From positions 1 to 32,747 of the IMG/VR virus record IMGVR_UViG_2636415906_000003: a DNA stretch of 32,747 nucleotides, one strand, 5' to 3'. A program made the position numbers and the translations under genes. This document shows positions 9,193 to 32,747 of the stretch, in pieces. The notes beneath the pieces were generated by a model that saw only the letters and a program-made list of their open reading frames with translations, was not told the origin of the DNA and made no database searches. Numbering within the stretch: the first letter of the stretch is position 1; each line of letters begins with the position of its first letter. Origin of the DNA: a virus. Lineage: Duplodnaviria; Heunggongvirae; Uroviricota; Caudoviricetes.

Positions 9193-9199
9193 GCAAATT

Positions 9200-12078: not shown

Positions 12079-12166
12079 TGACCATCTACATCACTGAGCT
12101 AATAACAGGCCTGCTGGTAATCGCAGGCCTTTTTATTTGGGGGAGAGTAATTGGAGGCTTTGAGAA

Positions 12167-13333: not shown

Positions 13334-13512
13334 GACGACAGCGACGAAGTTTCACCGACATCATCTGCGAAAACTGCAAATACCTTCCAACGAAACGCTC
13401 CAGAAATAAACGCAAGCCAATCCCAAAAGAATCTGACGTAAAAACCTTCAATTACACGGCTCACCTGTGGGATATCCGGTGGCTTAGAGAACGTGCGAGG
13501 AAAACAAGGTGA
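13330..13512 (+). CDS. ninE: NinE-like protein
   Basis: 60-aa ORF ([34 protein letters not shown]...) matching my memory of lambda NinE; its start overlaps the methylase stop. Confidence 0.7.
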
Positions 13513-13679
13513 TTGACCCAAATCGAAGTTACGAACAAGAAAGCGTCGAGCGAGCTTTAACGTGCGCTAACTGCGGTCAGAAGCTGCATGTGCTGGAAGT
13601 TCACGTGTGTGAGCACTGCTGCGCAGAACTGATGAGCGATCCGAATAGCTCAATGTACGAGGAAGAAGACGATGAGTGA
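13509..13679 (+). CDS. ninF: NinF-like protein
   Basis: 56-aa Cys-rich ORF (...[25 protein letters not shown]...) matching my memory of lambda NinF; GTG start overlapping the ninE stop. Confidence 0.65.
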
Positions 13680-13776
13680 GTTAATAAATGGCAATGCCAT
13701 CAAAATGACAAGCATTGAAATCGCTGAGTTGGTGGGAAGTCGTCATCCCGGTTTATGGAAAACGCTGGTTCATTGA
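13672..13776 (+). pseudogene. 5' stub of a gene (34 codons) ending at the deletion junction
   Basis: [25 protein letters not shown]... looks like the start of a phage DNA-binding or regulatory protein, then hits a stop where the frame changes into portal-homologous sequence. Confidence 0.35.
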
Positions 13777-14947: not shown

Positions 14948-14960
14948 CCAGGAGTAATCA

Positions 14961-15845: not shown

Positions 15846-15856
15846 GGAAAAGATAA

Positions 15857-17128: not shown

Positions 17129-17132
17129 TAAC

Positions 17133-17159
17133 AAGGGGCTTACGCCCCTTTTATGTTTT
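17133..17159 (+). terminator. Rho-independent terminator after the coat gene
   Basis: Hairpin aaggggc-ttac-gcccctt (17133..17150) followed by a T-rich run. Confidence 0.6.
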
Positions 17160-17170
17160 AAGGAAACAAT

Positions 17171-17356
17171 ATGGATCGGATGAGTGTATTCCTTGCCGCA
17201 GATAACGAATCCGGGCATGTACAGGCCGTTATCGCAGAAAAAGACTTCCAGTTTTTCGAAAGGTTGGGCTTTGTTGCCTCAGTTGATGAATTGAAACCGA
17301 CCAGTAAGCGAGGTCGCAAGGCGGCGGACAATGGCAACAGTACTGACAAAGGGTGA
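17171..17356 (+). CDS. Small hypothetical protein between coat and gp4 (61 aa)
   Basis: ORF with an AAGGAAA SD directly after the coat terminator. Confidence 0.45.
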   Translation: MDRMSVFLAADNESGHVQAVIAEKDFQFFERLGFVASVDELKPTSKRGRKAADNGNSTDKG

Positions 17357-17813
17357 GATCGTCCTTTTTGCGCTTCGTAAGTTTGCTATTGCTTCTAATG
17401 CATCGCTTACTGATGTTGAGCCGCAATCAATTGAAGATGGTGTAAATGATCTGGAAGATATGATGTCCGAGTGGATGATTAACCCCGGCGACATTGGTTA
17501 CGCTTTCGCAACTGGAGATGAGCAGCCATTACCAGATGATGAGTCAGGTCTTCCAAGAAAATACAAACACGCAGTAGGCTATCAGTTATTGCTGAGAATG
17601 CTATCTGATTACAGCCTTGAACCAACTCCGCAAGTTCTCAGTAACGCCCAACGCTCATATGATGCCTTGATGACCGACACTCTGGTTGTTCCTTCAATGC
17701 GACGACGTGGAGATTTTCCTGTAGGGCAGGGTAATAAATATGACGTGTTCACATCTGACCGATATTATCCAGGCGATCTCCCTCTGATTGATGGCGATAT
17801 CCCAAACGCATAG
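17331..17813 (+). CDS. Head completion / tail adaptor protein (P22 gp4-like)
   Basis: 160-aa ORF; [23 protein letters not shown] aligns with P22 gp4 [23 protein letters not shown]. Confidence 0.7.
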   Translation: [160 protein letters not shown]

Positions 17814-17821
17814 GTGAATAA

Positions 17822-19240
17822 ATGCCTATTCAGCAACTTCCGCTTATGAAAGGTGTCGGCAAAGACTTCCGAAACGCCGACTATATCGACTATCTGCCAG
17901 TGAATATGTTGGCTACACCCAAAGAAATCCTGAACAGCAGCGGATATCTTCGCTCATTCCCGGGCATTGCCAAACGTTCTGATGTGAACGGTGTATCGCG
18001 CGGAGTCGAGTACAACATGGCGCAGAATGCTGTTTATCGTGTCTGTGGTGGCAAGCTCTACAAAGGCGAAAGCGAAGTCGGTGACGTCGCCGGAAGTGGT
18101 CGCGTATCAATGGCACATGGTCGGACATCTCAGGCTGTAGGCGTTAATGGTCAACTGGTCGAGTATCGCTATGATGGCACGGTTAAAACCGTCTCAAACT
18201 GGCCTGCAGACAGCGGATTTACGCAGTATGAGTTAGGTTCAGTCCGCGACATTACACGCTTACGTGGGCGTTATGCGTGGTCAAAAGACGGCACGGATTC
18301 ATGGTTTATCACTGACCTTGAAGACGAATCGCATCCTGACCGTTACAGCGCACAATATCGTGCCGAGTCGCAGCCGGACGGCATCATCGGCATCGGAACA
18401 TGGCGAGACTTCATCGTCTGCTTTGGTTCATCGACGATTGAATATTTTTCCCTGACAGGTGCAACCACCGTTGGTGCCGCGTTGTATGTCGCACAGCCAT
18501 CACTGATGGTGCAGAAAGGAATTGCCGGGACTTACTGTAAAACGCCGTTTGCTGATTCGTATGCGTTTATCAGCAATCCGGCAACAGGTGCGCCGTCTGT
18601 ATACATCATCGGCTCCGGTCAGGTGTCACCAATTGCCAGTGCGAGCATTGAGAAAATCCTCCGCTCCTACACTGCTGATGAACTGGCTAATGGTGTGATG
18701 GAATCGCTGAGATTTGATGCTCATGAGTTGCTGATTATCCACCTTCCGCGCCATGTTCTCGTGTACGACGCATCTTCAAGCGCCAATGGTCCGCAATGGT
18801 GCGTACTGAAAACAGGACTGTATGACGATGTATACCGCGCTATCGACTTCATTTACGAAGGCAATCAGATAACGTGCGGCGATAAGCTGGAATCGGTGAC
18901 CGGGAAATTGCAGTTCGATATCAGCAGTCAGTATGGGCTTCAACAGGAACACCTGCTGTTTACTCCACTGTTCAAAGCGGATAACGCCAGATGCTTCGAT
19001 CTGGAGGTGGAATCATCCACTGGCGTAGCTCAGTATGCCGACCGCCTGTTCCTCTCTGCAACCACTGACGGCATCAATTACGGGCGTGAGCAGATGATTG
19101 AGCAGAATGAACCGTTCGTTTACGACAAACGCGTTTTGTGGAAGCGTGTCGGGCGAATAAGGAAAAATGTCGGCTTCAAATTGCGCGTTATCACTAAGTC
19201 ACCTGTCACCCTGTCTGGCTGCTCTATTAGGCTGGAGTAA
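17822..19240 (+). CDS. Tail accessory protein (P22 gp10-like)
   Basis: 472-aa ORF matching my memory of P22 gp10 along its full length (MPIQQLPLMKGVGKDFRNADYIDYLPVNMLATPKEILNSSGYLRSFPGI...). Confidence 0.85.
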   Translation: MPIQQLPLMKGVGKDFRNADYIDYLPVNMLATPKEILNSSGYLRSFPGIAKRSDVNGVSRGVEYNMAQNAVYRVCGGKLYKGESEVGDVAGSGRVSMAHGRTSQAVGVNGQLVEYRYDGTVKTVSNWPADSGFTQYELGSVRDITRLRGRYAWSKDGTDSWFITDLEDESHPDRYSAQYRAESQPDGIIGIGTWRDFIVCFGSSTIEYFSLTGATTVGAALYVAQPSLMVQKGIAGTYCKTPFADSYAFISNPATGAPSVYIIGSGQVSPIASASIEKILRSYTADELANGVMESLRFDAHELLIIHLPRHVLVYDASSSANGPQWCVLKTGLYDDVYRAIDFIYEGNQITCGDKLESVTGKLQFDISSQYGLQQEHLLFTPLFKADNARCFDLEVESSTGVAQYADRLFLSATTDGINYGREQMIEQNEPFVYDKRVLWKRVGRIRKNVGFKLRVITKSPVTLSGCSIRLE

Positions 19241-19242
19241 TA

Positions 19243-19737
19243 ATGATTTCACATGAAGAGTTGAAGCGTCATTTATCATATGACCCAGAAACCGGGGTTT
19301 TTACCCGAAAAATATCAAATACAGCGAGCGTCACCGTTGGTGATGAAGCGGGAACCATGTGCACTGGTTATTTAAGGATAATGGTCTGTGGTAAGAGATA
19401 CTTAGCGCATAGGCTTGCTTGGTTTTATATGACAGGAAAACCTGCAAATTGCTTAATAGATCATATTAACGGAGACAGAACGGATAACAGATTTTCAAAT
19501 TTAAGATTGGCAAATAGATCCCAGAATGGGATGAACAGGAATATTCAAAGAAATAATAAGTCAGGATATCCGGGTGTCTGTTGGCACAAAAATCTCTGCA
19601 AGTGGACTGTTTCTTTCAAGAAAAATAAAAAACAGGTTCACGTTGGATGCTTCGATGACCTGGACGAAGCTATCTCAGCATCAATGATGGCAAGAGCAGA
19701 AAATTTTGGAGAGTTTGCAAGGCAGAGGATCGAGTAA
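19243..19737 (+). CDS. HNH homing-type endonuclease with AP2-like DNA-binding domain
   Basis: HNH motif ([25 protein letters not shown]) plus an AP2-like segment ([31 protein letters not shown]); the gene is visibly more AT-rich than its neighbours. Confidence 0.8.
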
Positions 19738-20438
19738 TGGTTGATTCATCACTGAATGATCCTGTCGTGGTTCAGGCTACGCGCCTTGATGCTTCAATTT
19801 TGCCACGCAATATATTCAGCCAGTCTTACCTGCTGTATGTCATAAATCAGGGTGCTGATGTCGGTGCGATTGCTGGGAAGGCAAATCAGGCTGGTCAGGG
19901 CGCTTATGATGCTCAAGTGAAAAACGATGAACAGGACGTCGAACTGGCAGATCACGATGCAAGAATCACCGCAAACACAAAAGCGATAAATCTCCTTGAG
20001 GTCAGGTTAACAACTGCCGAAGGGAAGATAGTCGTACTGCGTAGCGATGTTGATTACTTGCTGGATGAGGTTATCGATATTCAGGCGCATCTGGTCACTG
20101 TTGACCAAAGACTGGATGGCGTAGAAAGCGATGTATCTGACATTAAGAGTGATTACGTATCGAAAACCGTAACCGAATCGCAGTCTCTTGCGTCACCGCT
20201 GGATGTAAAAACATCATATTCAGTTGATGGAATTCAGGTTGTTGGAGCAAGAAATACCGGATGGACTGCAGCCACAGGTACACCTCTTCTTGGCTCATTC
20301 AACGCTAACCAGTCATACACGGTCGGCACTACGTACACACAATCCGAAGTCGCGGCTCTCGCTACAGGTTTGCAGCAGGCGCGGCAGCGTATTCTGGCGC
20401 TTGAAACAGCACTTAGATTACATGGGCTGATTGACTGA
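19737..20438 (+). CDS. Tail needle protein (P22 gp26-like)
   Basis: 233-aa ORF matching P22 gp26 at the N-terminus ([17 protein letters not shown]) and C-terminus ([20 protein letters not shown]...LRLHGLID). Confidence 0.85.
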
Positions 20439-20893
20439 TGATTACATTCAAACCAACGCGAAACATCGACTTGATCGAAGCAGTCGGAAATCACCCTGAC
20501 ATTATTGCCGGGAGCAACAACGGTGATGGATACGACTACAAGCCTGAATGCCGTTACTTCGAGGTGAACGTGCACGGGCAGTTTGGCGGCATTGTTTACT
20601 ATCAGGAGATTCAGCCGCTTACATTCGATTGCCACGCCATGTACCTGCCAGAGGTTCGTGGATTCAGCAAGGAAATCGGTCTGGCGTTCTGGCGATACAT
20701 TCTGACTAACACCACTGTTCAGTGCGTCACATCGTTCGCTGCACGCAAATTCCGCCATGGTCAGATGTACTGCGCAATGATTGGCCTTAAGCGTGTAGGA
20801 ACCATCAAGAAATACTTCAAAGGCGTGGATGACGTGACGTTTTACAGCGCCACACGCGAAGAACTAATCGACTTCCTGAATCACGGGAGATAG
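20438..20893 (+). CDS. Virion assembly protein at the gp14 position (P22 gp14-like)
   Basis: 151-aa ORF between the gp26 and gp7 homologues, its start overlapping the gp26 stop; assigned by position. Confidence 0.55.
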   Translation: MITFKPTRNIDLIEAVGNHPDIIAGSNNGDGYDYKPECRYFEVNVHGQFGGIVYYQEIQPLTFDCHAMYLPEVRGFSKEIGLAFWRYILTNTTVQCVTSFAARKFRHGQMYCAMIGLKRVGTIKKYFKGVDDVTFYSATREELIDFLNHGR

Positions 20894-20895
20894 CC

Positions 20896-21591
20896 ATGTT
20901 ATATGCATTTAAGCTGGGCAGAAAACTGCGCGGCGAGGAACCTTATTGCCCTGAAAAAGGCGGGAAAGGTGGCAGTTCTGATAAAAGTGCAAAGTATGCC
21001 GCAGAAGCTCAGAAGTATGCCGCAGACCTGCAAAATCAGCAGTTCAACACCATCATGAACAACCTGAAGCCGTTTACTCCTCTGGCTGGGAAGTATGTCG
21101 GCAGCCTTGAGAACTTATCGTCTCTGGAAGGGCAAGGTCAGGCACTTAACCAGTATTACAACTCTCAGCAGTACAAAGATCTTGCTGGTCAGGCTCGCTA
21201 TCAGAGTCTGGCGGCAGCGGAAGCAACAGGTGGATTAGGTTCCACCGCAACCAGTAATCAGTTAGCAACAATCGCACCAACGCTTGGTCAGCAATGGCTA
21301 TCTGGTCAGATGAACAACTACCAGAATCTGGCAAATATTGGTCTTGGCGCACTGCAAGGTCAGGCAAACGCCGGGCAGACATATGCCAACAACATGAGTC
21401 AGATTTCGCAGCAAAGTGCGGCTCTTGCAGCGGCAAATGCCAACAGACCATCAGCAATGCAATCTGCTATTGGCGGGGGTGCGTCTGGTGCTATTGCTGG
21501 GGCTGGACTTGCGAAATTAATTGGTTCATCAACTCCGTGGGGTGCTGGTATCGGTGCTGGTATCGGTCTGCTTAGTTCACTGCTTTATTAA
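20896..21591 (+). CDS. Ejection (DNA transfer) protein (P22 gp7-like)
   Basis: 231-aa Gln/Ala/Gly-rich ORF with a hydrophobic Gly-rich C-terminus, in the gp7 position. Confidence 0.75.
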   Translation: MLYAFKLGRKLRGEEPYCPEKGGKGGSSDKSAKYAAEAQKYAADLQNQQFNTIMNNLKPFTPLAGKYVGSLENLSSLEGQGQALNQYYNSQQYKDLAGQARYQSLAAAEATGGLGSTATSNQLATIAPTLGQQWLSGQMNNYQNLANIGLGALQGQANAGQTYANNMSQISQQSAALAAANANRPSAMQSAIGGGASGAIAGAGLAKLIGSSTPWGAGIGAGIGLLSSLLY

Positions 21592-21601
21592 GGGGTAATC
21601 A

Positions 21602-23017
21602 ATGGCTACGTGGCAACAGGGTATTAATTCTGGTGGTTTTCTGGCTGGCATCGGTACGCAAAATGAGAATGCGCCAAAGGCAAGCGACATTAACGCAACG
21701 CTTGGTCTGATCCGCGAAAACAATGAACTGGCTCGCTCAGGTGCAAATAACGTTGGTCTGACCGCGTTACGTGGTCTGGCTGGAGTTGCTGATATTTACA
21801 ATCAGGAACAGCAACAGAAAGCGATTAGTGCGTTCAATAAGGTTCATGCTGATGCATGGGCTTCTGGTGATCCATCTGGACTATTTAAGTTTGCCCAGGA
21901 AAATCCAGCGTTTGTTGCACAGGCACAACAGGCGTTTTCCGGTCTTAATGAGCAGCAACGCAACGATATGGGCGATTTAGCCATGAGGGCTAACGTCGCT
22001 CTTTCTCAGGGACCGGAAGCCTACAGTAAATTCATTACTGACAACAAGGACAGGTTAAATCGCGTGGGGGCGAATGCTGACTGGATGATTCAGACAGGTA
22101 TCCAGAATCCAGAGCAGCTATCACACATGCTGACTACTATGTCTCTCGGTGCGCTTGGACCAGAAAAGGCGTTTGCTGTTCAGGATAAGATGGCTGGTCG
22201 TGAAATTGACCGAGGCAGGCTGGCAGAGACAATCCGCAGCAATCAGGCTGGTGAAGCACTTCAGGCGAGAGGGCAAAACCTTTCCTATCAGTCAGCAATG
22301 ACTGGGCACAATATCGCAGCACAACGCTTGGCTCTGGATCAGCAAGAGTTCGGGTTTAAGATGCAGCAAGCGCAGGAAAAGGCTCAGCAGTTGATTAGTG
22401 AAGCACCTAAGCTGTCAGTAAACATGGAAAAAGGCATCGAGACGGCTGTAAACAATGCCACAGCATCATCAAACTCAGCCAATTCTATGAGTGCGCTTGC
22501 TCAACAGTTCAGAGCAGAAAAACCAACGACAGGTTTGTTCGGTAACGCACAGAACATGTTCGCAAAACTTACCGGAAGCGATACAACATTGCGTGATTTG
22601 CGCATTCGCCAAAATGCCCTTGTTAACAGTCAGGTTCTTAAATTCCTACCTCCCGGCCCAGCAACGGATAAAGACGTTGAGATCGTTCGACAGGGTGCGC
22701 CAACTGACATGGATAACCCTGAGACGGTCGCAAGATGGCTTGATGCAATGGCAAACCTTGAGCGACGAAACGCGCAGTTTAATGAGTTTAAAGCCGAGTG
22801 GATGAGCGCGAATGGCAACCCTGGACAATCGCGTAATGGCGGTCAGATATTGGGGTTGGATGTTAAAAAAGGTGAATCATTGGGGAGTGCCGTTAAGCGG
22901 TATATGTCAATGAATACTGACGCAGCGCCAGCACAAGATTCGACACCTTCAGGAGAACCACGGAATCAGGTTGGATCATATACCTCAAAATCAGGCATTC
23001 AATTTACGGTGGAATGA
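21602..23017 (+). CDS. Ejection protein (P22 gp20-like)
   Basis: 471-aa ORF in the gp20 position, the same length as P22 gp20. Confidence 0.8.
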
Positions 23018-24846
23018 TGAAAGTAACTGCAAACGGTAAGACATTTACCTTTCCTGATGGTACGAGCACCGAAGATATTGGCACCGCCATTGATGAGTAT
23101 TTTGCTGGTCAGGCTGTTCAGCAACAAACAGTTAATCAGGCCAATAATGCACCAACACGGGAAGAACCATCATTGATGCAACAAGCTGGCGATTGGCTCA
23201 CTGGTGGTCAAAGTGCAGGGCAAATTGCAGAACAGGCTGGCCGTGGTCTGGTAAACATACCATTTGACGTATTGCAGGGTGGTGCAAGTCTGATTAATGC
23301 AATCAGTCAGGGGCTTGGTGGGCCAAAAGTATTGGATGATGTTTATCGTCCAGTAGACAGACCGACAGACCCCTACGCGCAAGCCGGTGAAACAATTGGT
23401 GGGTATTTAGTTCCAGGAGTTGGAACGGCAGGAAGCATGGCTATTGGATCACTGGCAGAGGCCGCAAATCAGAAAGGCGATTTCGCACAAAATGCAACTA
23501 AAAATGCCGGAGTTAACCTTGCCGCTCAGGGGGTTCTTTCCGCAGCAGCAAAGGGAATAGGGCGTGGAATTACTGCTGTTCGTGGCGAAATATCACCAGC
23601 AGATCAGCAATTGCTCAAGCGTGCCGCTGCGGCAGATGTACCAGTTATGACATCGGATGTAGTTCCTCCAAAAACAAAACTTGGCAATCAACTGCAGGGT
23701 TACTCAGAAGGAGTCATAGCTGGGACTGGACCAATGAGAGCCGCACAGCAGGATGCTAGAACCAAGCTTGTTAATCGCTTCACCGAAAAATACGGCGACT
23801 ACGATCCATCTGTAGTCGTTGATAGTCTAAAGTCAGGCGTTGCAAGGGAAAAATCGTTAGCCAAGTCAAAACTAAACAACCTGTCAGGAAGAATGGTTGG
23901 AAAGCCAGTTGATACAAGTGGCGCCATAAGAGCTATCGACGGAGCAGTAAACGAACTTGGGAAACTTAAAGGTGTTTCTGACACCCAGACCATTTCTGCG
24001 CTTAATGATTATAAGAATGCCATTCAGGAGATAACAAATGGAGATGATGCCTTTGAGTTACTTGATAAGCTGAGAACTCAGTTCCGCATTGACGTAAAAG
24101 GCGATCGTACAGTTCTGCCATCAATGTCGCAAACAATGGTCGACAGGGTCTACAACTCGCTAACCAATAGCCTTAGTAAATCTATAGCGAAAGGACTTAG
24201 CCCAAAAGATGCTTCAGCATGGAGAGCGGGAAAAGCTGATTATGCAAAAATGGCAACACATGCAACTCAAACGCGCCTTAAAAACGTTCTAAACAAAGGA
24301 GATTTAACTCCCGAGGCTGTAAATACCATTGTGTATGGACAATATGGGTCAGATATAGCTCGATTGTACGGGAAACTCGATCAAAAAGGTAAAGACATGC
24401 TAAGGGCGGCATATATCAGCAAAATAGCTGACAAGGTAGGTGACAGCCCTCAGAAAATGATGACCGAGCTTGGCAAGCTGCAAAAACAAGCAAATGGTCA
24501 GGTGTTTAAAACTGTATTTGGTGGGAAGAACGGAAAAGAGATAGAGGGGATGTTATCTATTCTCGATGCTACCAAAAGAGCATCTGAGGCTAATGTTGTG
24601 ACGAAGACTGGCATGACACTCGCGCCTTTGGTAAGGGTTATTGGTAACCTAAAAACCGGAGGCGCGCTATTGGCTGGGGAAACAGGGATTGGCCTTATGT
24701 CGAGGGTTTATGAAAGCCCTATGGCTAGGAATGCGCTCTTACGTCTGGCAAACACTAAAGCTGGAACGCCAGCTTATGAAAGAGCGCTGAATAACGCCGC
24801 AAATGCCATCAGACCAATACTTGCCAATGATGCAACTGATCGCTAA
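23014..24846 (+). CDS. Ejection protein (P22 gp16-like)
   Basis: 610-aa ORF in the gp16 position, its start overlapping the gp20 stop. Confidence 0.8.
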
Positions 24847-24867
24847 GGGTTGATGTCATGGATGTTG

Positions 24868-25507
24868 TTAATTGCGAATGGAATCGCGGAACTCTTTGCT
24901 TGATAGAAAAGGATCTGTTCTCCTTAACTCATCATAGTTTTTATTAAACTTTCTTGCTTCACCTGGGTATCTGTTGAACAAAACATTGCAGAAAAAAGAG
25001 AGCAATAACTCACATATGAATGCTAATACCCTGAAAAATAAAGGTATAAAAAGAAGGGAAGGTTCATTGAAGTCTCTATTCCAAACAAAATAGACAATCA
25101 TCCCGACATACCAAATTGATATCCCTATACTGATGATTGTTCCAACAGAGGTAACTACGATCCCGATTAAGTCGGACAGTCTGTTTGCCAGTAACTCATT
25201 TGAGTATCTTGCAATCATATACCGCCAACATTTTGCAATATCATCCTGATCTGTAGAGTCTTCTGGAATAGCTAGGCTTCTACATATTGAAGTAGCTCTT
25301 TTTTTCTCAACTCTTTTTGAGAGCCATCCATTAAAGAGATACATCAACACCTGCGTTGCTATTCCTGCACCAAGTGATATCAAAGACATCCCCAAAAATC
25401 GCCATCCTGGAGATAGTGACTGGTACTGCCAAAACAAAAAAAATTAAAAAACCCAATGAGCCTATGACATAGGCTGATGTATCGCTATATATATCTATTT
25501 TTTTCAT
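24868..25507 (-). CDS. Polytopic membrane protein at the sieA position (candidate superinfection exclusion protein); possibly frameshifted
   Basis: An ATG-initiated 58-codon frame (25507 down to 25331) encodes one predicted TM helix; a second frame (reaching 25437 down to 24868) encodes three more. The frames overlap around T5/G4 runs near 25385..25400. AT-rich. Confidence 0.45.
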
Positions 25508-25557
25508 TGAGTAGCCACTCCTTAGTTTTGAGCAGAACACCGGATGATAATGTTTTG

Positions 25558-25809
25558 TTATGTGTCTTTTGGGATTCTATCCAGTAACTCGTTGGAAATT
25601 TTATCAAGTAAAGATTTTATTTGTTTAAGATCTAATGATTTGTCTACTGATGAGACGTCATATGATAACGCATCCTCAAGAATTTGAACTATCTCTGAGT
25701 TCATAGATCGACCGTTTCGTTTAGCCCTTTCCGCAATAGCACTACGCATGCCGTCAGGCATTCTAACCGTAAATCTTTCTATGAAATTTGATTCGTCTTT
25801 TTCTGACAT
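25558..25809 (-). CDS. mnt: Mnt-like ribbon-helix-helix repressor
   Basis: RHH N-terminus aligning with P22 Mnt (FTVRMPDGMRSAIAERAKRNGRSMNSEIVQILEDALS against FNFRMPMEVREKLKFRAEANGRSMNSELLQIVQDALS); divergent from the arc-like gene. Confidence 0.65.
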   Translation of the reverse strand: MSEKDESNFIERFTVRMPDGMRSAIAERAKRNGRSMNSEIVQILEDALSYDVSSVDKSLDLKQIKSLLDKISNELLDRIPKDT

Positions 25810-25892
25810 TTTCTTATTCGCAAGGCATATGAGCAATAAAAAACACAGTAGCATCATATTGACATTATGAGCAATGGCATCATAATGGTGTC

Positions 25893-25913
25893 ATGACATC
25901 ATGGTGATGTCAT
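25893..25913. promoter_or_regulatory. Operator-like perfect palindrome between the divergent mnt-like and arc-like genes
   Basis: atgacatca-tgg-tgatgtcat is a 21-bp palindrome, with further catcat / gtcatgac repeats in 25860..25925. Confidence 0.5.
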
Positions 25914-25929
25914 TATGACGGAGATATTG

Positions 25930-26106
25930 ATGATGAGCGATGTTCTTTACAGTGGTCGTAAAAGTCAGAGTTTCCAGCTTCGTTTGCCAGCGCGAATGAA
26001 GGAGGAGATCAGACGCGTAGCTGAAATGGATGGAATTTCTATCAACTCTGCGATTGTGCAGCGACTGGCTAAAAGCCTGAGAGAGGAAAGAGCTAATGCC
26101 CAGTAA
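25930..26106 (+). CDS. arc: Arc-like ribbon-helix-helix repressor
   Basis: 58-aa ORF with GGAG SD; SFQLRLPARMKEEIRRVAEMDGISINSAIVQRL aligns with P22 Arc (PQFNLRWPREVLDLVRKVAEENGRSVNSEIYQRV). Confidence 0.7.
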   Translation: MMSDVLYSGRKSQSFQLRLPARMKEEIRRVAEMDGISINSAIVQRLAKSLREERANAQ

Positions 26107-26179
26107 AAATAGTGAAGCCCGGCAGTGCGCGAACACAAACCGGGCCTCTATGTCAGTAACCGTATGCAAGGAAACTAAC

Positions 26180-26806
26180 ATGAATATTGTAGCAAAATCA
26201 GATTACAACTTCCACGGAGTTGAGTTGGTGCCCACCCGTGATATGCATGGTGTTTGGTTTACATCATCTAATATTGCATCTGCACTTAAATACGCAAATA
26301 GTCGTGCAGTAACAATGATTTATAACAAGTATAGCGATGAGTTTAGCGCCGGAATGACTCAGGTACTCGAAGTGAGTACCTCAGGAAATTATCGCAAAAA
26401 AGTGCGAGTTTTCTCACTACGCGGTGCCCACCTAATCGCGATGTTTGCTCGCACTCCGGTAGCCAAAGGGTTCCGCCGCTGGGTGCTGGATATTTTGGAT
26501 CGGCAGGCAGAATGCTCACCGATTGCAAAACAGTTTACTGACGAAGAACTGGTTAATCTCTGCTACTTACAATTGTGGATGGAGAAGAGTCAACAAATGT
26601 GCAAACACATCTACCCAGGAATGAAGCAAATTGGTTCTGAGCTTTCAGGAAGGATTTACGATATTGCATATGAGACTCGCTACATGTCAGAAGAAACCAA
26701 GAAATCGCTTCTTCGTGAAATGAAGAATCTTGGTACCAACAATTTTGTCGTAAAGAACGCTCAGCCAATGCTGGCAAAACTTCGCGGCGAGGAATGGATT
26801 CATTGA
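26180..26806 (+). CDS. ant: Antirepressor, AntA/Bro-N-type N-terminal domain protein
   Basis: Lies downstream of arc; PVAKGFRRWVLDILDRQAE aligns with the P22 Ant motif PEAKPFRRWVTSEVLPSIRQ. Start taken at ATG 26180 after an AAGGAAA SD. Confidence 0.65.
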   Translation: MNIVAKSDYNFHGVELVPTRDMHGVWFTSSNIASALKYANSRAVTMIYNKYSDEFSAGMTQVLEVSTSGNYRKKVRVFSLRGAHLIAMFARTPVAKGFRRWVLDILDRQAECSPIAKQFTDEELVNLCYLQLWMEKSQQMCKHIYPGMKQIGSELSGRIYDIAYETRYMSEETKKSLLREMKNLGTNNFVVKNAQPMLAKLRGEEWIH

Positions 26807-26893
26807 TTGGTGCACAGGACGGCGCAAAAGAAAACCGCCAGTGTGCTGCTGGCGGCCTATGTCACACCCTTACTACCACATAAGGAATGCCTA

Positions 26894-27622
26894 ATGACTT
26901 TTAAGAATGTAGCAAACATCGGATCCGTTGTCACGGATAAAACCATTGACAGCCAGCGCCTGCTTGAGATGGTAAATCAGGCTCGTAGACAGTGCGGTGA
27001 GCCGGAGGTTCGTAATAACAAATTCATCGAGAAAATTGAAGATGAATTGGATGGAGAGCACTACACAAAAAGTGTAGTGCAAAAAGCGAACAAAACTTCG
27101 ATGGTTATCATTGAGATGTCAATCAAGCAAGCATTGCGAGTTGCCGCTCGCGAGTCAAAAGCCGTTCGCCGCTCACTGGTAGACCAACTTGAAAGTATGC
27201 AAGAAGCGCACATTAAAAGCGGTAAATCAGCGAGTGGACTTGTTGAGTATCGTCAAGCGCGAACATTGAAAATGACGGTTGAAGCTGTTACCAATCTGTT
27301 CGATCTGATGCCAAATCTTGCGCCGGAGGCAAAGCAGACAGCGGCAGCAAGTATAATCAACCCGCTCGTTGGTTTTAATGCAATACCTCTTCCGGCAATA
27401 GAAGAGCATTACTACTCAGCAGGGGAGGTTGCAGAGCAGCTTGGAGTAACGGCCAACAAGATTGGTCGCATTGCTAACGCAAACAACCTCAAAACTGAGC
27501 AGTACGGGAAGTTCTTCTTGGATAAATCTGCGCATTCAAGCAAACAGGTGGAAGCATTCCGCTACAATGCGGAGGGTGTTAAAGCACTACAACACCTGAT
27601 TCATGGGAGCAATGTTGCATAA
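26894..27622 (+). CDS. Second antirepressor-like / phage regulatory domain protein
   Basis: 243-aa ORF from ATG 26894 (TAAGGAA SD), immediately after the first antirepressor gene. The domain assignment is tentative. Confidence 0.5.
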   Translation: MTFKNVANIGSVVTDKTIDSQRLLEMVNQARRQCGEPEVRNNKFIEKIEDELDGEHYTKSVVQKANKTSMVIIEMSIKQALRVAARESKAVRRSLVDQLESMQEAHIKSGKSASGLVEYRQARTLKMTVEAVTNLFDLMPNLAPEAKQTAAASIINPLVGFNAIPLPAIEEHYYSAGEVAEQLGVTANKIGRIANANNLKTEQYGKFFLDKSAHSSKQVEAFRYNAEGVKALQHLIHGSNVA

Positions 27623-27843
27623 TGGCAAAGAAAAGATATGGCATTATGCCGCCAAGAATCAAAGGAAGAGCCAGGGTAAAAGGAGATGCTGGAAGGTATC
27701 ACATTCTTGGAGTTCTGTGGCATGAGAGAGCTTTAATTTTAAGTAGACCTCATGGGTACATTGAAAAGGTATCTATAGATAGAGTAGAGATTCTTCCCCT
27801 TACACCTGAAGAAGAAGAAACTTACGGACTTTTTGATAACTAA
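27622..27843 (+). CDS. Small basic hypothetical protein (73 aa)
   Basis: ORF overlapping the upstream stop and followed by a terminator hairpin; AT-rich. Confidence 0.45.
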   Translation: MAKKRYGIMPPRIKGRARVKGDAGRYHILGVLWHERALILSRPHGYIEKVSIDRVEILPLTPEEEETYGLFDN

Positions 27844-27850
27844 CCAATTA

Positions 27851-27879
27851 AACCCGCTTAATCGCGGGTTTTTTCTTTT
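27851..27879 (+). terminator. Rho-independent terminator after the ant operon
   Basis: Hairpin aacccgc-ttaatc-gcgggtt (27851..27870) followed by ttttcttttc; it overlaps the 3' end of the convergent mnt-like gene. Confidence 0.55.
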
Positions 27880-28115
27880 CTAAGAATATCAGCCGCAACT
27901 TCTTTTACTCGTTCCGAGATTAATGAGGCAAGCCTCTCTTCTTCATCACGATACCCGCTTACAGGTGATGGTTTGGAGAGCGATTCTTCCATCGTAGCCA
28001 CAATTTCGGAATTGATAGACCTGTTATTCATTTTTGCACGTTGCTTAATCTTGGCGTGCAACTCGTGCGTAAGCCTCAAGTGGAACTGCGCCTCATCGTA
28101 TTTGCTGTACATCAT
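27858..28115 (-). CDS. Second Mnt-like ribbon-helix-helix repressor, divergent from the tailspike gene
   Basis: [17 protein letters not shown] matches P22 Mnt SKPSPVTGYRNDAERLA, with an RHH N-terminus ([10 protein letters not shown]). Start at ATG 28115 with a GGTGAGG SD. Confidence 0.7.
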
Positions 28116-28247
28116 CAATGCCTCACCAAATGGGTGGAATGGCATCGTAAAACCTACTGTACAAATCAACAATCGTACCGTTTCGGTATGCAACAAATAC
28201 CAACCGTAGCCATGCTGCGGCCATTCCTTGTATCTGGAGCAAATCAA

Positions 28248-30254
28248 ATGACAGATTCAATAAATGCCAATGTTGTAGTGAGTATGCCTTCGCAACTCTT
28301 CACTATGGCTCGTTCTTTTAAAGCTGTAGCCAATGGCAAAATTTATATCGGTAAAATTGACACTGACCCGGTAAATCCTGAAAACCAGATTCAGGTTTAT
28401 GTAGAGAATGAAGACGGCTCTCACGTTCCTGTTTCGCAACCAATCATCATTAACGCTGCCGGATATCCGGTATATAACGGGCAGATTGCCAAGTTCGTAA
28501 CTGTGCAAGGCCATTCTATGGCTGTTTATGATGCATACGGTGCGCAGCAGTTCTATTTTCCGAATGTGCTGAAGTATGATCCTGATCAGTTATCTATAAA
28601 ACTATCAAGTAATATTGGATACAAATACATTGGAATGGTAGAGAGCGCTAACTCCCTTAAAGATATACAAGGAATGTCGATATCTGATAAATTATATTTA
28701 AAATCATACGTATCCGGACTCGAACTTGGTGGTGGGTTTGTTGTAGCTGTAGACAAGTCAATTGCAGTTGATAACGTAATGGTTTTAGAAGGTAACGGTG
28801 TAAATTGGAAGAGAATAAACCCAAGCCTTGAGTTTTCTGTATATGACGCTGGTTACAGCGGCGCTGGGGATATTGCATTATTTATTAATAAAATAAACTC
28901 TCTAGGTTATGATTGCGTTGTTCCATGTAGTGGAGAATTCTCGTCTTTAATTGATATTGATTTCGCGAAGGGTGGGTTAAGAGGATCGAATAAATGCGTT
29001 TTAACTGAGATTAATGGGATATCAGGTGATTATGCAATTAGGTTAAGCAACTCTAATATTTCTTATGAAAATAGGGATGAAATAAATGCAACATCAATTT
29101 TAGATGGCATATCTTTTAAGATGCTAGGATCTAAAAAGATTTTACTTGGAGGTATTGGCACTGGTGAATTATCAGAGTTAAGAATAAGTAATTCTTCATT
29201 CATATCATCTGCTGGAATTGAGTTTCTTGATAATTCATATAGAATTTTATTTGACAAAGTAACAATATCAAGATGTCTAAACAACACAATTATATTTAAT
29301 TCTCCATCAAACTCAGGCGAGGTAATGACATTTAATAATTGTTGGGTTGTTGATAATGGAGGTCCATTGACAATTAGAAATGGTCAATTTATTTTTAACT
29401 GTTGCTCTATGCCATCAGGTAAGAAAGAAGGTTATTTTGATTCTACTGTTTTTATTGAAGATAACGCAACCGTTGTTTACTCAAGTGGAAATATTGAGTT
29501 TCAGCCAGGTCAAAGCTTTGTGGCGTTCTCTGCATCTGGAAGCACAAGAATAAGCATTAAAGATACAACGCTACTTACTCCCTCTGGATATAGTTCAGTT
29601 CCGTTTGTTGTAAATGATGATTCAGTACTTTCATTAACAAATTGCTCATTGCCTTTATTTGACCAAATGGATTTGGCGACAGGATCAGCAACTAGACAGG
29701 TAGTTGGAGGTAATAGTAAAAAAATAATGTCATATGGATGCTATCCACGATCTGGATTTATAACAACTCAGTGGGATAAAGGGAACATAGTTAGTCCATA
29801 CATAAATTCGCTATCAAATGGAAGTGGACAGTTTTTAAACTACTCTAACTGGAGCCTTCAACAAACTGGTTCAGGTGTTGTTACAGCAGGAACGGATTCT
29901 GATGTTCCAAATGATATTATGTTTTCCAGGTCTTTGTATGTAGCAATACCATCTATAGGAGCATCTGCAAAATTTTATCAGGAGTGCTCAGACTGCTCAC
30001 CAGGACGATATTTCCAGTTAGGTTTTTGGGCTAAGAATCAAGTGACAACAATCTCTGGTATTGAGTTTTTTGATAAAGAAGGGAACTCTGTTCAGGGAAA
30101 AGCAACATTTACAATTCCACTAGGCTCCACATGGAATTTCTACGCATTAATAGATATTGTTCCTCCTGGAGCAAGCAAAGTTAGGATTGATTTTGATGTT
30201 TCCGGTGAAGCAGGCTCTCTTCATTTGCATAATGTTATTTATGGGCTGATTTGA
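28248..30254 (+). CDS. Tailspike protein: P22 gp9-like N-terminal head-binding domain fused to a divergent beta-helix receptor-binding domain
   Basis: First ~115 aa closely match P22 gp9 ([48 protein letters not shown]...), with no recognisable P22 similarity beyond about residue 120. The remainder is AT-rich and Asn/Ser/Gly-rich. Start at ATG 28248 after a GGAG SD. Confidence 0.85.
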
Positions 30255-30345
30255 AGATTTCACATCTAATGTGACCAAACTTAGACAAAACAAAGCCTTG
30301 TCTGGATTGCAAAGCTTTGTACTATCCGATAGTGGTTAAGGTTGG

Positions 30346-31503
30346 TCACTCCACCTTTTCATCAATCCAATCCGCCCACCATTGCATCATTTCTCTGCGC
30401 TTTTCTAGATACTGAGCATGGTTGTAAATCCCACGCACAGATCCGCCGTTGGCATGTGCCAGTTGCACTTCAATAGCGTCAGCAGGCCATTCGTGCTCGT
30501 TCATAATTGTGCTGAATTCATGCCTGAATCCGTGACCGCTTTCCAGACCCTCATAGCCGATTTGTTTGATCACAAGCAGCACCGCGTTCTCGCAGATCGG
30601 CTTCTTCTTATCGTTGCGCCCGGCAAAAACAAACTCTGATACTGGTTTGGTGATTGAGCTTAGCGTAGTGAGAAGTTCAACCACCTGGTCTGACATCGGG
30701 ACCACATGAATCTTGCGGCCCTTCATCACACTGGCGTCGATAGTGATAATCCTGTTTTCAAAATCGACGTTCTTCCATTGCATGGAGCGAAGTTCTTTTG
30801 TTCTGAGGGCTGTGTAGCGTAAAACTTTGGTTGCAATGAGCGATACGATACTTCCTGAAAATGTTGCCAGTGCTTTGTTGAATGCCGGGATCTGGTCTGC
30901 AGGAAGAAACGGGAAGTTCTTCTTGCGGTATCCCTTCATGGCGTCAGCAAGGTCAGGTGCTGGGTTATATTTAGCCCTGCCGGTGACAATAGCGTAACGG
31001 AAAACCTCGCCGCATCTTCTACGTGCTTTGTTGGCTCGCTCCATTGCACCGCGATCTTCAAATCTGCGGATTACTTCCAGCAGTTGTATCGGCTCAATAT
31101 CCTGAATTTCAAGGCCGCCGATGATAGGTAAAATGTCGTCATCAAACATTTTTGCAAGTTCAGTTGCATATCCTACTGACCAGACTTGCTTCTTGTGCTC
31201 GTACCATTCCTTGTAAATGGCACTAAAGGAATTGTTGTTAGACGAAGCCTTTTTCGCTTTTACCGGATCGATGCCAACCGAGATGTCTTTCCTCGCAGTC
31301 CATGCTTTATCCCTTGCCTCCTGCAAAGTCATTAGCGGATATTTTCCTACGGTCAGGATTTTCTCCTTACCGTCAATCTTGTAGCGAAGCTGCCATACCT
31401 TTTTCCCTGACACAGGGACATAAAGGTACAGGCCATTACCATCGAGTAGGCGGTATGGTTTTTCTTTCGGCTTGGCTGCTTCAATCTGCTTAACGGTGAG
31501 CAT
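30346..31503 (-). CDS. intS: Tyrosine integrase, IntS/P4-family
   Basis: Adjacent to tRNA argW; the 385-aa product from ATG 31503 (MLTVKQIEAAKPKEKPYRLLDGNGLY...) matches my memory of E. coli IntS. An in-frame ATG at 31539 would add 12 codons. Confidence 0.85.
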   Translation of the reverse strand: MLTVKQIEAAKPKEKPYRLLDGNGLYLYVPVSGKKVWQLRYKIDGKEKILTVGKYPLMTLQEARDKAWTARKDISVGIDPVKAKKASSNNNSFSAIYKEWYEHKKQVWSVGYATELAKMFDDDILPIIGGLEIQDIEPIQLLEVIRRFEDRGAMERANKARRRCGEVFRYAIVTGRAKYNPAPDLADAMKGYRKKNFPFLPADQIPAFNKALATFSGSIVSLIATKVLRYTALRTKELRSMQWKNVDFENRIITIDASVMKGRKIHVVPMSDQVVELLTTLSSITKPVSEFVFAGRNDKKKPICENAVLLVIKQIGYEGLESGHGFRHEFSTIMNEHEWPADAIEVQLAHANGGSVRGIYNHAQYLEKRREMMQWWADWIDEKVE

Positions 31504-31664
31504 GGGTAAAAATCCGGTGGGTAAAATTATTTTATCCACTTTTTACCCGTCATGGAGTGCGGCTGTCAACGATCTGACGCGAACCATTACGAACTGTGAA
31601 TCTACGGAAGGCTTGATATTCAGTGGATTTTGCGGACTGGTACGGATGGGAGCGAACTGATAAA

Positions 31665-31739
31665 TGGTGTCCCCTGCAGGAATCGAACCTGCAATTAGCC
31701 CTTAGGAGGGGCTCGTTATATCCATTTAACTAAGAGGAC
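31665..31739 (-). tRNA. argW: tRNA-Arg (anticodon CCU)
   Basis: Read from the minus strand: acceptor stem, D-arm, anticodon loop CUCCUAA (anticodon CCU), T-arm GGTTCGATTCC and a 3' CCA; 75 nt. Confidence 0.9.
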
Positions 31740-31814
31740 AATGCGGCATGAGTATACCCGCTAATGGAGTGCGGGGTAAGTACGCTGCCGCTCGATTGCT
31801 TAAACCCTCGCCAT

Positions 31815-32747
31815 TTATGCCGGGTTTTTATCATTTTTCTTAATGTTTTCCGCACGTTCTGCTTTTTGGCGTGCTTCTGCTTTACGCTTGTTGCTCATGT
31901 CGTTACGAATCTGTGCATGACTCATTAACGCGAAGATAAAGGTGCCGCCGCAGATGTTCCCCGCTAAAGTAGGTAGTGCGAAGGGCCAGATGAAATCGCT
32001 CCAGTGCAGCGTACCGTTAAACACCAGATAGAGGATTTCAACAGAACCGACCACGATATGGGTGGTGTCACCCAGGGCAATAAGCCAGGTCATCAATATA
32101 ATCACCACAATCTTTGCCGCACCTGCTGCAGGAAACATCCATACCATAGTGGCGATCAGCCAGCCGGAAATGATCGCGTTGGCAAACATCTCGCTGGGGG
32201 TGTTCTTCATCACATCCATGCCGATTTTGACAAATGCATCGCGAGTTTCTTCATTGAAGATAGGCATATATTCAAATGCCCATGCAGCAATACCTGTCCC
32301 GAGAATATTACCCAGCAGCACGACGCCCCATAATCGCATAAGTAAGCCGACGTTGCTCATTGTCGGTTTTTGCATGACGGGTAGTACCGCAGTCACGGTG
32401 TTTTCGGTAAATAATTGCTGGCGGGCCATAATGACGATAATAAAACCAAAGGTATAACCGAGATTCTCCAGTAAGAAGCTGCCCGGCACACCTTCCAGTT
32501 CGACATGAAATATCCCTTTTGCCAGTAACGAAGCGCCCATCGACAGACCCGCCGCAATGGCTGACCACAGTAGCGCCATTGCGTCGCGTTCCAGCTCTTT
32601 TTCACCATCCTGGCGGATATGCTCATGAATTGCCATCGCCCGGGAGGGGAGTCGGTCTTCATCTATTTCTATTTTTTTGCCGCGCTCTTTTTCTTCGCTC
32701 TCAACTTCAATTTCGTCGCTGTGTTGATCAATTTTGTCGTTGTCCAT
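31815..32747 (-). CDS. yfdC: Inner membrane protein YfdC (formate/nitrite transporter family)
   Basis: 310-aa polytopic membrane ORF next to argW, matching my memory of E. coli YfdC. Its start codon is the last three bases of the window. Confidence 0.8.
   Translation of the reverse strand: MDNDKIDQHSDEIEVESEEKERGKKIEIDEDRLPSRAMAIHEHIRQDGEKELERDAMALLWSAIAAGLSMGASLLAKGIFHVELEGVPGSFLLENLGYTFGFIIVIMARQQLFTENTVTAVLPVMQKPTMSNVGLLMRLWGVVLLGNILGTGIAAWAFEYMPIFNEETRDAFVKIGMDVMKNTPSEMFANAIISGWLIATMVWMFPAAGAAKIVVIILMTWLIALGDTTHIVVGSVEILYLVFNGTLHWSDFIWPFALPTLAGNICGGTFIFALMSHAQIRNDMSNKRKAEARQKAERAENIKKNDKNPA

What the first reader, a model, noticed from the sequence alone, without database searches (positions are those of the whole stretch)
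24868..25857. AT-rich module at the sieA position: membrane protein split over two frames, plus an RHH repressor
Between gp16 and the immI genes, on the opposite strand, lies a predicted four-helix membrane protein. Its first TM helix is in a 58-codon ATG-initiated frame (25507 down to 25331) and the rest is in a frame with no ATG upstream of the overlap (24868..25437, nominal start TTG). The frames overlap near T5/G4 homopolymer runs at about 25385..25400, so this may be a frameshifted or slippage-dependent gene, or a sequencing error. The position matches the P22 superinfection-exclusion gene sieA and a known hotspot for defence cargo.
Basis: partly seen in the sequence, partly recalled or inferred. 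Interest (0 to 1): 0.55.

Follow-up and report, generated by a model that had tools for sequence, protein, structure and literature searches.

The report
Frameshifted sieA phage-exclusion gene
The "split membrane protein" is a known superinfection-exclusion gene (type B sieA of P22-like prophages) broken by one extra T that no relative carries, sitting next to an ordinary Mnt-like repressor gene, so it is an ordinary, already-characterised gene in damaged (or mis-sequenced) form.

Summary
The split is real. On the minus strand a 58-codon ATG frame (25507..25331) and a 189-codon frame (25437..24868) together encode one protein. It is one extra T in a short run (T8-G-T4 at 25443..25431; every relative has T8-G-T3). 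Removing one T gives a 212-aa protein identical to WP_021575669.1, which is found on 935 contigs. It differs by one residue from the SieA of E. coli HS prophage HS1, the "type B" SieA that Leavitt et al. 2024 showed to block DNA injection by P22-like phages. The P22 SieA match (28% identity, E 2e-24), PHROG 7745, Pfam PF26849, the FxRYPxEAxxFNK motif and the position between gene 16 and immI all agree. All 19 related loci read carry the intact gene, so this is not a programmed frameshift. The rest of the shared 23.3 kb differs from E. coli NC22 by one SNP. The prophage (at argW) is also defective. I favour a recent inactivating mutation (about 0.6) over a sequencing error (about 0.3). The RHH gene (25809..25558, 83 aa) is a Mnt homologue with divergent promoters and palindromic operators. 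This is already known and of low interest.

The parts
25435..25507 (-). sieA (type B), 5' part in the original frame: codons 1-24, which cover the short cytoplasmic N-terminus and most of TM1. The ATG is at 25507..25505 and the AAGGAG Shine-Dalgarno at 25523..25518.
   Evidence: anti-SD duplex -8.7 kcal/mol, spacing 7.
25431..25434 (-). Frameshift site: a T4 run (A4 on the + strand) where all relatives have T3. It lies immediately 3' of the T8 run (25443..25436) and G 25435.
   Evidence: Alignments A1 and A3. Run-length census of 19 loci. Base-by-base comparison with NC22. No exact match to the T4 allele in genome contigs or viral contigs.
25331..25430 (-). Out-of-frame tail of ORF1: 33 missense codons and a TAA stop at 25333..25331. 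This is not part of the native protein. It overlaps the true reading frame of the 3' part listed next.
24868..25430 (-). sieA 3' part in the shifted frame: codons 26-212 of the intact protein. It holds the conserved WQYxSLSPGWRFLG loop, TM2-TM4 and the cytoplasmic FNRYPGEARKFNK motif. An internal ATG (Met40) lies at 25389..25387.
   Evidence: Precomputed Pfam PF26849 SIEA on the 173-aa product.
25558..25809 (-). mnt-like ribbon-helix-helix repressor gene, 83 aa.
   Evidence: Pfam Arc 1.6e-17. 55% identity to the P22 Mnt RHH domain, with the same total length. The exact 83-aa protein is on 297 contigs.
25853..25913 (.). Divergent promoter/operator region. Pant-like, + strand: TTGACA-16-CATAAT (25859..25886). 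Pmnt-like, - strand: ATGCCA-16-TATGAT (25880..25853). Palindromes: CATTATGA-N9-TCATAATG (25863..25887) and ATGACATCA-N3-TGATGTCAT (25893..25913).
   Evidence: consensus-level matches only. The layout matches the annotated P22 immI region.
25933..26106 (+). arc homologue.
   Evidence: Pfam Arc 1.1e-11. 42% identity to P22 Arc. The start follows the RefSeq annotation of the identical NC22 gene.
26180..26806 (+). ant (antirepressor; Bro-N and P22_AR_C domains).
23014..24846 (+). Gene 16 homologue (ejection / DNA transfer protein). It is convergent with sieA and is the target class of SieA.
   Evidence: RefSeq 'DNA transfer protein'. PF26808 Phage_P22_gp16 on homologous neighbours. Gene 20 homologue at 21602..23017 (PF16928).

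Best explanation
The locus is the type B sieA gene of a P22-like prophage integrated at argW in E. coli. Intact, it encodes a 212-aa inner-membrane protein. That protein has an extra N-terminal transmembrane helix followed by the three-helix core shared with P22 SieA. From the prophage it blocks DNA injection by incoming P22-like phages, apparently by interfering with the gp20/gp16 ejection-protein conduit. In this window one extra T (T3 to T4 at 25434..25431, codon 25/26, at the end of TM1) shifts the frame. Ribosomes starting at the native ATG then make a 58-aa peptide (TM1 plus 33 junk residues). The remaining 187 codons have no good start of their own. The shift is not programmed. It is private to this sequence, and I judge it most likely a recent, genuine inactivating mutation in an already defective prophage. 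The upstream 83-aa RHH gene is the Mnt-type maintenance repressor of the immI (arc-ant) module and is unaffected.

Shown: gene identity, the exact lesion, its absence from relatives, and the prophage defects. Taken from the literature: the exclusion mechanism. Inferred: loss of function, and mutation rather than error.
For: Identity of the gene:
- Deleting one T gives a protein 100% identical to WP_021575669.1. The exact sequence is on 935 contigs.
- It differs by one residue (L62I) from the E. coli HS gene. HS1 SieA (EcHS_A0321) excluded P22, L, MG40, MG178, LP7 and ejection-protein hybrids (PMC10883804).
- BLASTP against P22 SieA gives 28% identity, E 2e-24, with residue 44 aligned to residue 14. 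That is the roughly 30-aa N-terminal extension described for type B.
- PHROG 7745 'SieA-like' matches at 1.6e-20, and PF26849 SIEA is recorded.
- The FxRYPxEAxxFNK motif is present.
- The gene lies between the gene 16 homologue and mnt-arc-ant-tailspike.

The lesion:
- T8-G-T4 in the window against T8-G-T3 in all 19 other loci read, 18 with the complete 212-codon ORF and one cut by a contig end.
- All 20 E. coli complete-genome hits that include sieA are one base shorter than the query.
- The T4 allele has no exact match in GTDB species genomes or IMG/VR.

Not programmed:
- Full length (212-226 aa) is conserved down to 52% identity.
- The residues just after the shift site (W26, Y28, L31, W35, R36, F37, G39) are invariant among type B proteins.

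Favouring a real mutation:
- The other 23,338 shared positions differ from strain NC22 by a single SNP, and all 26 homopolymers of 6 nt or more agree, including the adjacent T8. The assembly is therefore not generally indel-prone.
- A 3-to-4 gain is not, to my knowledge, the typical homopolymer error.
- The prophage is already decayed: the portal is cut to Pfam positions 276-594, and no Q, lysis or terminase genes were found between NinF and that portal fragment.
- Other assemblies carry independent frameshifts in the same 62-nt segment.
Against: No reads are available, so a base-calling or assembly error cannot be excluded. A single indel in 23 kb is also what a well-polished long-read assembly would show.

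Loss of function is inferred, not shown. The 173-codon frame from Met40 is colinear with the whole of P22 SieA, which works with three TM helices. The adjacent T8 run could also allow a low level of frame restoration by transcriptional slippage.

The equation of EcHS_A0321 with ECHS_RS01600 rests on indirect grounds. It is the same genome, the only match in it, it lies next to the gene 16 homologue, and it fits the percent identity and N-terminal extension given in the paper. It was not checked against a locus-tag table.
Confidence: 0.6

Rival explanations
1. Sequencing or assembly error. The strain really has T8-G-T3 and an intact, functional type B sieA identical to WP_021575669.1.
For: The extra base lies in a T-rich stretch (T6-AA-T8-G-T3), and sieA holds 5 of the 26 runs of 6 nt or more in the shared 23.3 kb. 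The allele is unique among all sequences read. Apart from it, the region is essentially identical to NC22.
Against: All 26 longer homopolymers, including the neighbouring T8, agree with NC22. The change is a gain in a 3-nt run, not the usual loss in a long run. Genuine independent frameshifts of this gene segment exist in several assemblies built from different sequencing runs.
Confidence: 0.3
2. The split allele still works through a short form. Translation from Met40 (ATG 25389) would give a 173-aa, three-TM protein colinear with type A (P22) SieA, and this would retain exclusion activity.
For: P22 SieA (162/164 aa, three TM helices) aligns from type B residue 44 onward. The 173-aa frame keeps TM2-TM4 and the cytoplasmic motif. 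In the T8-to-T7 alleles of other assemblies the upstream frame stops at TGA only 5 nt past this ATG, an arrangement that would permit termination-reinitiation (sequence).
Against: Met40 is not conserved in type B (M/I/V). The Shine-Dalgarno match is weaker and 11 nt away (-6.5 against -8.7 kcal/mol). In this window ORF1 stops 54 nt downstream of that ATG, so coupling is unlikely. The invariant WxYxSLSPGWRFLG segment (residues 26-39) would be lost.
Confidence: 0.1
3. Slippage-dependent or phase-variable expression. RNA polymerase slippage on the T8 run, +1 ribosomal frameshifting, or reversible tract-length changes would switch SieA on and off.
For: A U8-to-U7 transcript would restore the frame, with only an FV-to-LF change in TM1 (derived from the sequence). 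At least five different indel alleles occur within codons 5-26 across assemblies: an (AT) 2-nt deletion, T8 to T7, a G-to-T change plus T7, a T6 expansion, and this T3 to T4.
Against: The shift is absent from all 19 relatives read, and the intact protein is on 935 contigs against 5-9 for the truncated call. That is about 1%, the level expected from ordinary decay. The mutated run is T3 to T4, not the long tract. No stop or rare codon and no upstream SD stimulator of the prfB type is present. The look-up that found the other alleles could only find N-terminal lesions, so enrichment there is not demonstrated.
Confidence: 0.05
4. Two separate genuine genes: a 58-aa single-pass peptide and a 173- to 189-aa membrane protein.
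For: Both frames are open, and gene callers annotate the 173-aa product in a few genomes.
Against: The 58-aa product is not in a 15-billion-protein collection. Every relative read has one fused 212-codon ORF. The genomes with the 173-aa call each carry a different lesion upstream.
Confidence: 0.01

Closest known systems
Type B SieA of E. coli HS prophage HS1 (EcHS_A0321; Leavitt et al., mBio 2024, PMC10883804)
   Same: The nucleotide sequence is 99.6% identical over the gene plus 46 bp upstream. The repaired protein differs at one residue (L62I). The position next to the gene 16 homologue is the same. The 212-aa, four-helix architecture is the same.
   Different: The window copy carries one extra T that splits the ORF. 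The upstream neighbour is an Mnt-like RHH gene here, whereas HS1 has a 213-aa HTH repressor-like gene. Homology with HS starts only at window 25553.
P22 SieA (type A), the founding superinfection-exclusion protein
   Same: It is homologous (28% identity over 148 residues, E 2e-24). It shares the three-helix core, the FxRYPxEAxxFNK cytoplasmic motif, the position between gene 16 and mnt, and the opposite strand to the late operon.
   Different: Type B has a roughly 30-aa N-terminal extension with an additional TM helix and a conserved WxYxSLSPGWRFLG loop, plus about 16 extra C-terminal residues. In P22, orf59a, a terminator and PsieA separate mnt from sieA. Here only 50 bp do.
P22 Mnt repressor (immI maintenance repressor)
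   Same: It has an RHH N-terminal domain 55% identical to this one, identical total length (83 codons), and the same divergent arrangement to arc-ant with overlapping promoter-like sites and palindromes.
   Different: The C-terminal half has no detectable similarity to the Mnt tetramerisation domain (the alignment stops at residue 49). The operator sequences are different.

Membership tests
SieA superinfection-exclusion proteins (Pfam PF26849; PHROG 7745), type B | Significant sequence similarity to P22 SieA or to the family profiles | tested here: met
   BLASTP E 2e-24. tblastn to P22 sieA E 3e-11. PHROG 7745 E 1.6e-20. PF26849 is recorded for the 173-aa product and for all homologues. The local Pfam copy lacks this model.
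SieA superinfection-exclusion proteins (Pfam PF26849; PHROG 7745), type B | Conserved cytoplasmic motif FxRYPxEAxxFNK near the C-terminus | tested here: met
   FNRYPGEARKFNK at residues 177-189. The motif is invariant in alignment A2.
SieA superinfection-exclusion proteins (Pfam PF26849; PHROG 7745), type B | Location in a P22-like prophage between the homologues of genes 16 and 9 | tested here: met
   Gene 16 homologue at 23014..24846 and tailspike at 28041..30254 (Head_binding). P22 coat, portal and gp20 domains are also present.
SieA superinfection-exclusion proteins (Pfam PF26849; PHROG 7745), type B | Type B architecture: a roughly 30-aa N-terminal extension with an extra TM helix ahead of the three-TM core | tested here: met
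The alignment offset is 30 residues. There are four hydrophobic segments. The AlphaFold model has helices 6-25, 33-78, 105-143 and 149-177, with mean pLDDT 75.
SieA superinfection-exclusion proteins (Pfam PF26849; PHROG 7745), type B | A single uninterrupted ORF encoding the whole protein | tested here: not met
   The extra T at 25434..25431 splits the gene into frames of 58 and 189 codons. It is therefore a disrupted allele (a candidate pseudogene) of the family, not an intact member.
SieA superinfection-exclusion proteins (Pfam PF26849; PHROG 7745), type B | Blocks DNA injection by P22-like phages; inner-membrane localisation | not testable with these tools
   Shown for P22 SieA and HS1 SieA in PMC10883804. 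Not shown for this allele.
Mnt/Arc ribbon-helix-helix repressors of immI | RHH DNA-binding domain | tested here: met
   Pfam PF03869 Arc E 1.6e-17. 55% identity to P22 Mnt residues 7-44.
Mnt/Arc ribbon-helix-helix repressors of immI | Divergent from arc-ant, with overlapping promoters and symmetric operators | tested here: inconclusive
   Promoter-like sites on both strands at 25853..25886, and two perfect palindromes. The number of promoter-like sites in the scanned region is not above the shuffle expectation (4 found, 4.7 expected). Binding was not tested.
Mnt/Arc ribbon-helix-helix repressors of immI | C-terminal tetramerisation domain of Mnt | tested here: inconclusive
   No sequence similarity beyond residue 49. 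The length is identical. RefSeq flags the identical gene as 'missing C-terminus', although the 83-codon ORF is complete and widespread.
Programmed frameshift or slippage-dependent genes | The frame change is conserved among homologues | tested here: not met
   All 19 related loci read, and all 20 E. coli genome hits that include sieA, lack the extra base.
Phase-variable contingency loci | Tract-length polymorphism at a hypermutable repeat, common in populations | tested here: inconclusive
   Variants at the T8, T6 and (AT)4 tracts exist, but at about 1% of contigs. The window's change is in a 3-nt run.
Abi / PADLOC defence families | A match to a defence-system profile | tested here: not met
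   No PADLOC hit at E <= 0.01 for the intact protein or for either fragment. No NCBIfam hit for the intact protein.

The most novel reading that the evidence does not exclude
The TM1-coding segment of type B sieA (the (AT)4, T6, T8 and T3 tracts within codons 5-26) may be a mutational switch. Recurrent indels there would toggle the prophage between the four-helix protein and either no SieA or a type-A-like three-helix short form. The short form would be made from Met40, by reinitiation in the -1 alleles. That would make superinfection exclusion heritably variable within a lysogen population.
Probability: 0.07. Interest if true: 0.45.

Novelty: already known. Interest (0 to 1): 0.14.

Why it matters
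It matters little beyond annotation. The locus should be labelled 'sieA (type B), frameshifted', not two hypothetical proteins, and the neighbouring gene should be labelled mnt-like.

If the insertion is real, this lysogen has probably lost SieA-mediated protection against P22-like phages while keeping the immI module. That would be a small example of moron decay in a defective prophage.

The only point of wider interest is that several assemblies carry independent frameshifts in the same T-rich N-terminal segment. Each leaves a core colinear with P22 SieA. This offers a cheap natural test of whether the extra type B helix is needed for exclusion.

Tried and rejected
- Megablast of the module against 50,697 phage records found nothing. 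Only tblastn found the distant type A sieA genes.
- Searches for the T4 allele as an exact pattern in GTDB species genomes and IMG/VR gave no hits.
- A run-length-tolerant pattern found nothing in genome contigs. It found only wild-type T8-G-T3 in 13 IMG/VR and 3 metagenome contigs.
- The local Pfam-A copy gave only sub-threshold noise for the 212-aa protein. PADLOC gave nothing for it or its fragments, and NCBIfam gave nothing for it.
- The T5/G4 run as the slip site is rejected, because it is invariant in all alignments.
- The TTG at 25437 as a real start is rejected. Its upstream sequence is U-rich, with a -3.1 kcal/mol anti-SD match.
- The terminator-like hairpins inside the gene (25475..25459 and 25415..25387) are not above the shuffle expectation and were not pursued.
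- The source genome of the window could not be found. The 58-aa product is not in the protein collection, and no complete E. coli genome spans the NinF/portal junction.
- A literature search for sieA plus frameshift found nothing relevant to such alleles.

Full report
**1. What is in the sequence**

On the minus strand an ATG at 25507, preceded by AAGGAG at 25523..25518, opens a 58-codon frame that ends at TAA 25333..25331. A second frame is open from 25437 to 24868 (189 codons, nominal TTG start) and overlaps the first.

The module 24868..25857 has 36.5% G+C. The window as a whole has 46.0% and the adjacent gene 16 homologue has 46.4%.

**2. One gene, one extra base**

Megablast against 5,426 complete E. 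coli genomes found 20 genomes that carry this gene at 98.5-99.9% identity. In every one the matched stretch is exactly one base shorter than the query.

In three of them (NC22, UTAK-1, HS) RefSeq annotates a single 639-bp, 212-codon gene. The alignment places the difference precisely. Relatives read TTTTTTTT-G-TTT-GGCAG and the window reads TTTTTTTT-G-TTTT-GGCAG. The extra T lies in the run 25434..25431, at codon 25/26.

A run-length census of every related locus fetched (3 E. coli genomes, 13 IMG/VR contigs, 3 metagenome contigs) found T8-G-T3 in all 19. The complete 212-codon ORF was present in 18 of them, and one was cut by a contig end. Only the window has T8-G-T4.

The T4 allele has no exact match in one genome per GTDB species or in IMG/VR. 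Deleting one T from the window gives a protein identical to WP_021575669.1. That exact protein is on 935 contigs of the large collection, whereas the 58-aa product of the first frame is not in the collection at all.

**3. What the gene is**

- The intact protein matches PHROG 7745 'superinfection exclusion SieA-like' (E 1.6e-20).
- It matches P22 SieA directly (28% identity over 148 residues, E 2e-24; tblastn to annotated sieA genes of 41 Salmonella phages).
- Precomputed Pfam hits list PF26849 'SIEA' for it and for all its homologues. The local Pfam copy lacks that model.
- It carries FNRYPGEARKFNK, which is the FxRYPxEAxxFNK motif.

Leavitt et al. (mBio 2024, PMC10883804) divide SieA proteins into types A, B and C, which are about 25% identical to each other. 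Type B has a roughly 30-aa N-terminal extension that contains an additional predicted TM helix.

Their type B representative is the HS1 prophage gene of E. coli HS. Placed in single copy in Salmonella, it fully excluded P22, L, MG40, MG178 and LP7 and behaved like P22 SieA. [quoted passage not shown]

The only match to the window gene in the HS genome lies next to the gene 16 homologue. It differs from the repaired window protein at one residue. The 30-residue alignment offset and the percent identity fit the paper's description. I infer that it is EcHS_A0321. The old locus tag itself is not shown in the RefSeq table.

An AlphaFold model built from 11 type B sequences (mean pLDDT 75) has long helices at 6-25, 33-78, 105-143 and 149-177. 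These coincide with the four hydrophobic maxima.

**4. Context**

The window is E. coli chromosome. It holds yfdC, tRNA-Arg(CCT) at 31665..31739 and intS, followed by a P22-like prophage with:
- a tailspike carrying a Head_binding domain;
- the immI module;
- homologues of genes 16 and 20;
- P22 coat;
- a DnaB-type helicase.

Window 1..7445 is 100% identical to strain NC22, and 16854..32747 is 99.987% identical. The only two differences are the extra T in sieA and a T/C substitution at 28433.

The prophage is defective. After NinF (13509..13679) the sequence runs into a portal gene that matches only profile positions 276-594. No antiterminator, lysis or terminase genes were found in between. 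No complete E. coli genome spans this junction. NC22 has a different, larger deletion.

**5. The RHH gene**

The ORF at 25558..25857 contains an 83-codon gene that starts at ATG 25809. It has a Pfam Arc domain (1.6e-17) and is 55% identical to the RHH domain of P22 Mnt, which is also 83 codons. The exact protein is on 297 contigs.

Upstream lie several regulatory-looking elements:
- a Pant-like site on the + strand, TTGACA-16-CATAAT (25859..25886);
- a Pmnt-like site on the - strand (25880..25853);
- two perfect palindromes (25863..25887 and 25893..25913).

The arrangement mirrors the annotated P22 mnt/arc/ant control region. These are consensus matches only. Homologues of arc (25933..26106) and ant (26180..26806) follow.

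In this window mnt and sieA are only 50 bp apart, with no terminator-like site between them. sieA may therefore be read from Pmnt, from a promoter-like site inside mnt (25627..25598), or from both. In HS the upstream gene is different, and homology starts only at window 25553. So mnt and sieA are separate mosaic modules.

**6. Is the frameshift programmed?**

No. It is absent from every relative read. Type B proteins keep their full length (212-226 aa) down to 52% identity. The residues immediately after the shift site (W26, Y28, L31, W35, R36, F37, G39) are invariant among them. Met40, the only ATG in the second frame near its 5' end, is M, I or V in the family. It has a weaker and badly spaced Shine-Dalgarno match.

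**7. Mutation or error?**

This cannot be settled without reads. I lean towards a real mutation, about 0.6 against 0.3, for four reasons:
- All 26 homopolymers of 6 nt or more in the 23.3 kb shared with NC22 agree, including the adjacent T8.
- A gain in a 3-nt run is not, to my knowledge, the typical long-read error.
- The prophage is visibly decaying.
- Independent lesions of the same segment exist elsewhere.

On the last point, the exact 173-aa product (Met40 start) is called on 5-9 contigs. The upstream sequences of these contigs show T8 to T7 (three contigs), a G-to-T change plus T7, an expansion of the T6 run, a 2-nt deletion in the (AT)4 repeat, and two 5' rearrangements.

That look-up could only find N-terminal lesions. 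The frequency is about 1% of contigs. It is therefore evidence of ordinary decay at T-rich tracts, not of phase variation.

**8. Consequence (inferred)**

From the native start the window allele yields TM1 plus 33 missense residues. Full-length SieA could arise only by rare frame restoration. For example, a U8-to-U7 transcript would change only FV to LF in TM1.

A 173-aa product from Met40 would be colinear with the whole of type A SieA, but it would lack the invariant type B loop. I regard the allele as probably null or strongly hypomorphic.

**9. Verdict**

This is a known, experimentally characterised gene family, here as a privately frameshifted copy next to a standard Mnt-like repressor. 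Novelty: already known. Interest: low.

Noticed in passing
window 13509..14947 (junction near 13746): The prophage is defective. NinF is followed directly by a portal gene that matches only Pfam P22_portal positions 276-594. No antiterminator, lysis or terminase genes were found in between. No complete E. coli genome in the collection spans this junction.
   Followed up: partly
window 7446..16853 versus L029 30515..30708: The window is 100% identical to E. coli NC22 on both sides (apart from the two differences noted elsewhere), but it carries 9.4 kb where NC22 has only 194 bp with a lysozyme fragment. The 9.4 kb holds the immunity, replication and nin genes, the portal fragment, scaffold and most of coat. 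These are two different deletion derivatives of one prophage at argW.
   Followed up: partly
window 28433: This is the only substitution (T here, C in NC22) in the 23.3 kb shared with NC22. It lies in the N-terminal part of the tailspike gene.
   Followed up: no
L021-L028 (other assemblies), equivalent to window 25430..25495: At least four other independent lesions of the sieA TM1-coding segment occur in other assemblies: T8 to T7, a G-to-T change plus T7, a T6 expansion, and a 2-nt deletion in (AT)4. Two 5' rearrangements were also seen. In the T7 alleles the upstream frame stops at TGA 5 nt after the Met40 ATG, an arrangement that would permit reinitiation.
   Followed up: partly
L030 3411..3779 (E. 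coli AR_0058) and L003 2341..2982 (E. coli HS): The slot between gene 16 and immI holds other cargo in related prophages. One carries a 122-aa protein of unknown function (PHROG 2651) in place of sieA. HS1 has a 213-aa HTH repressor-like gene in place of mnt.
   Followed up: partly
window 25663..25809 (equivalent to L001 3092..3238): RefSeq marks the identical mnt-like gene as a pseudogene 'missing C-terminus' in NC22, UTAK-1 and AR_0058. However, the 83-codon ORF is complete and the exact protein occurs on 297 contigs. This is probably an annotation artefact caused by the divergent C-terminal half.
   Followed up: partly
window 26807..27622 and 27858..28145 (-): The immI region is enlarged relative to P22. 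It has a second antirepressor-like gene (PHROG 1726, E 8e-101) and a third Arc-family RHH gene on the minus strand just before the tailspike.
   Followed up: no
window 19243..19737: A 164-aa ORF is inserted in the late operon after the gp10 homologue. The identical NC22 gene is annotated as an HNH endonuclease.
   Followed up: no
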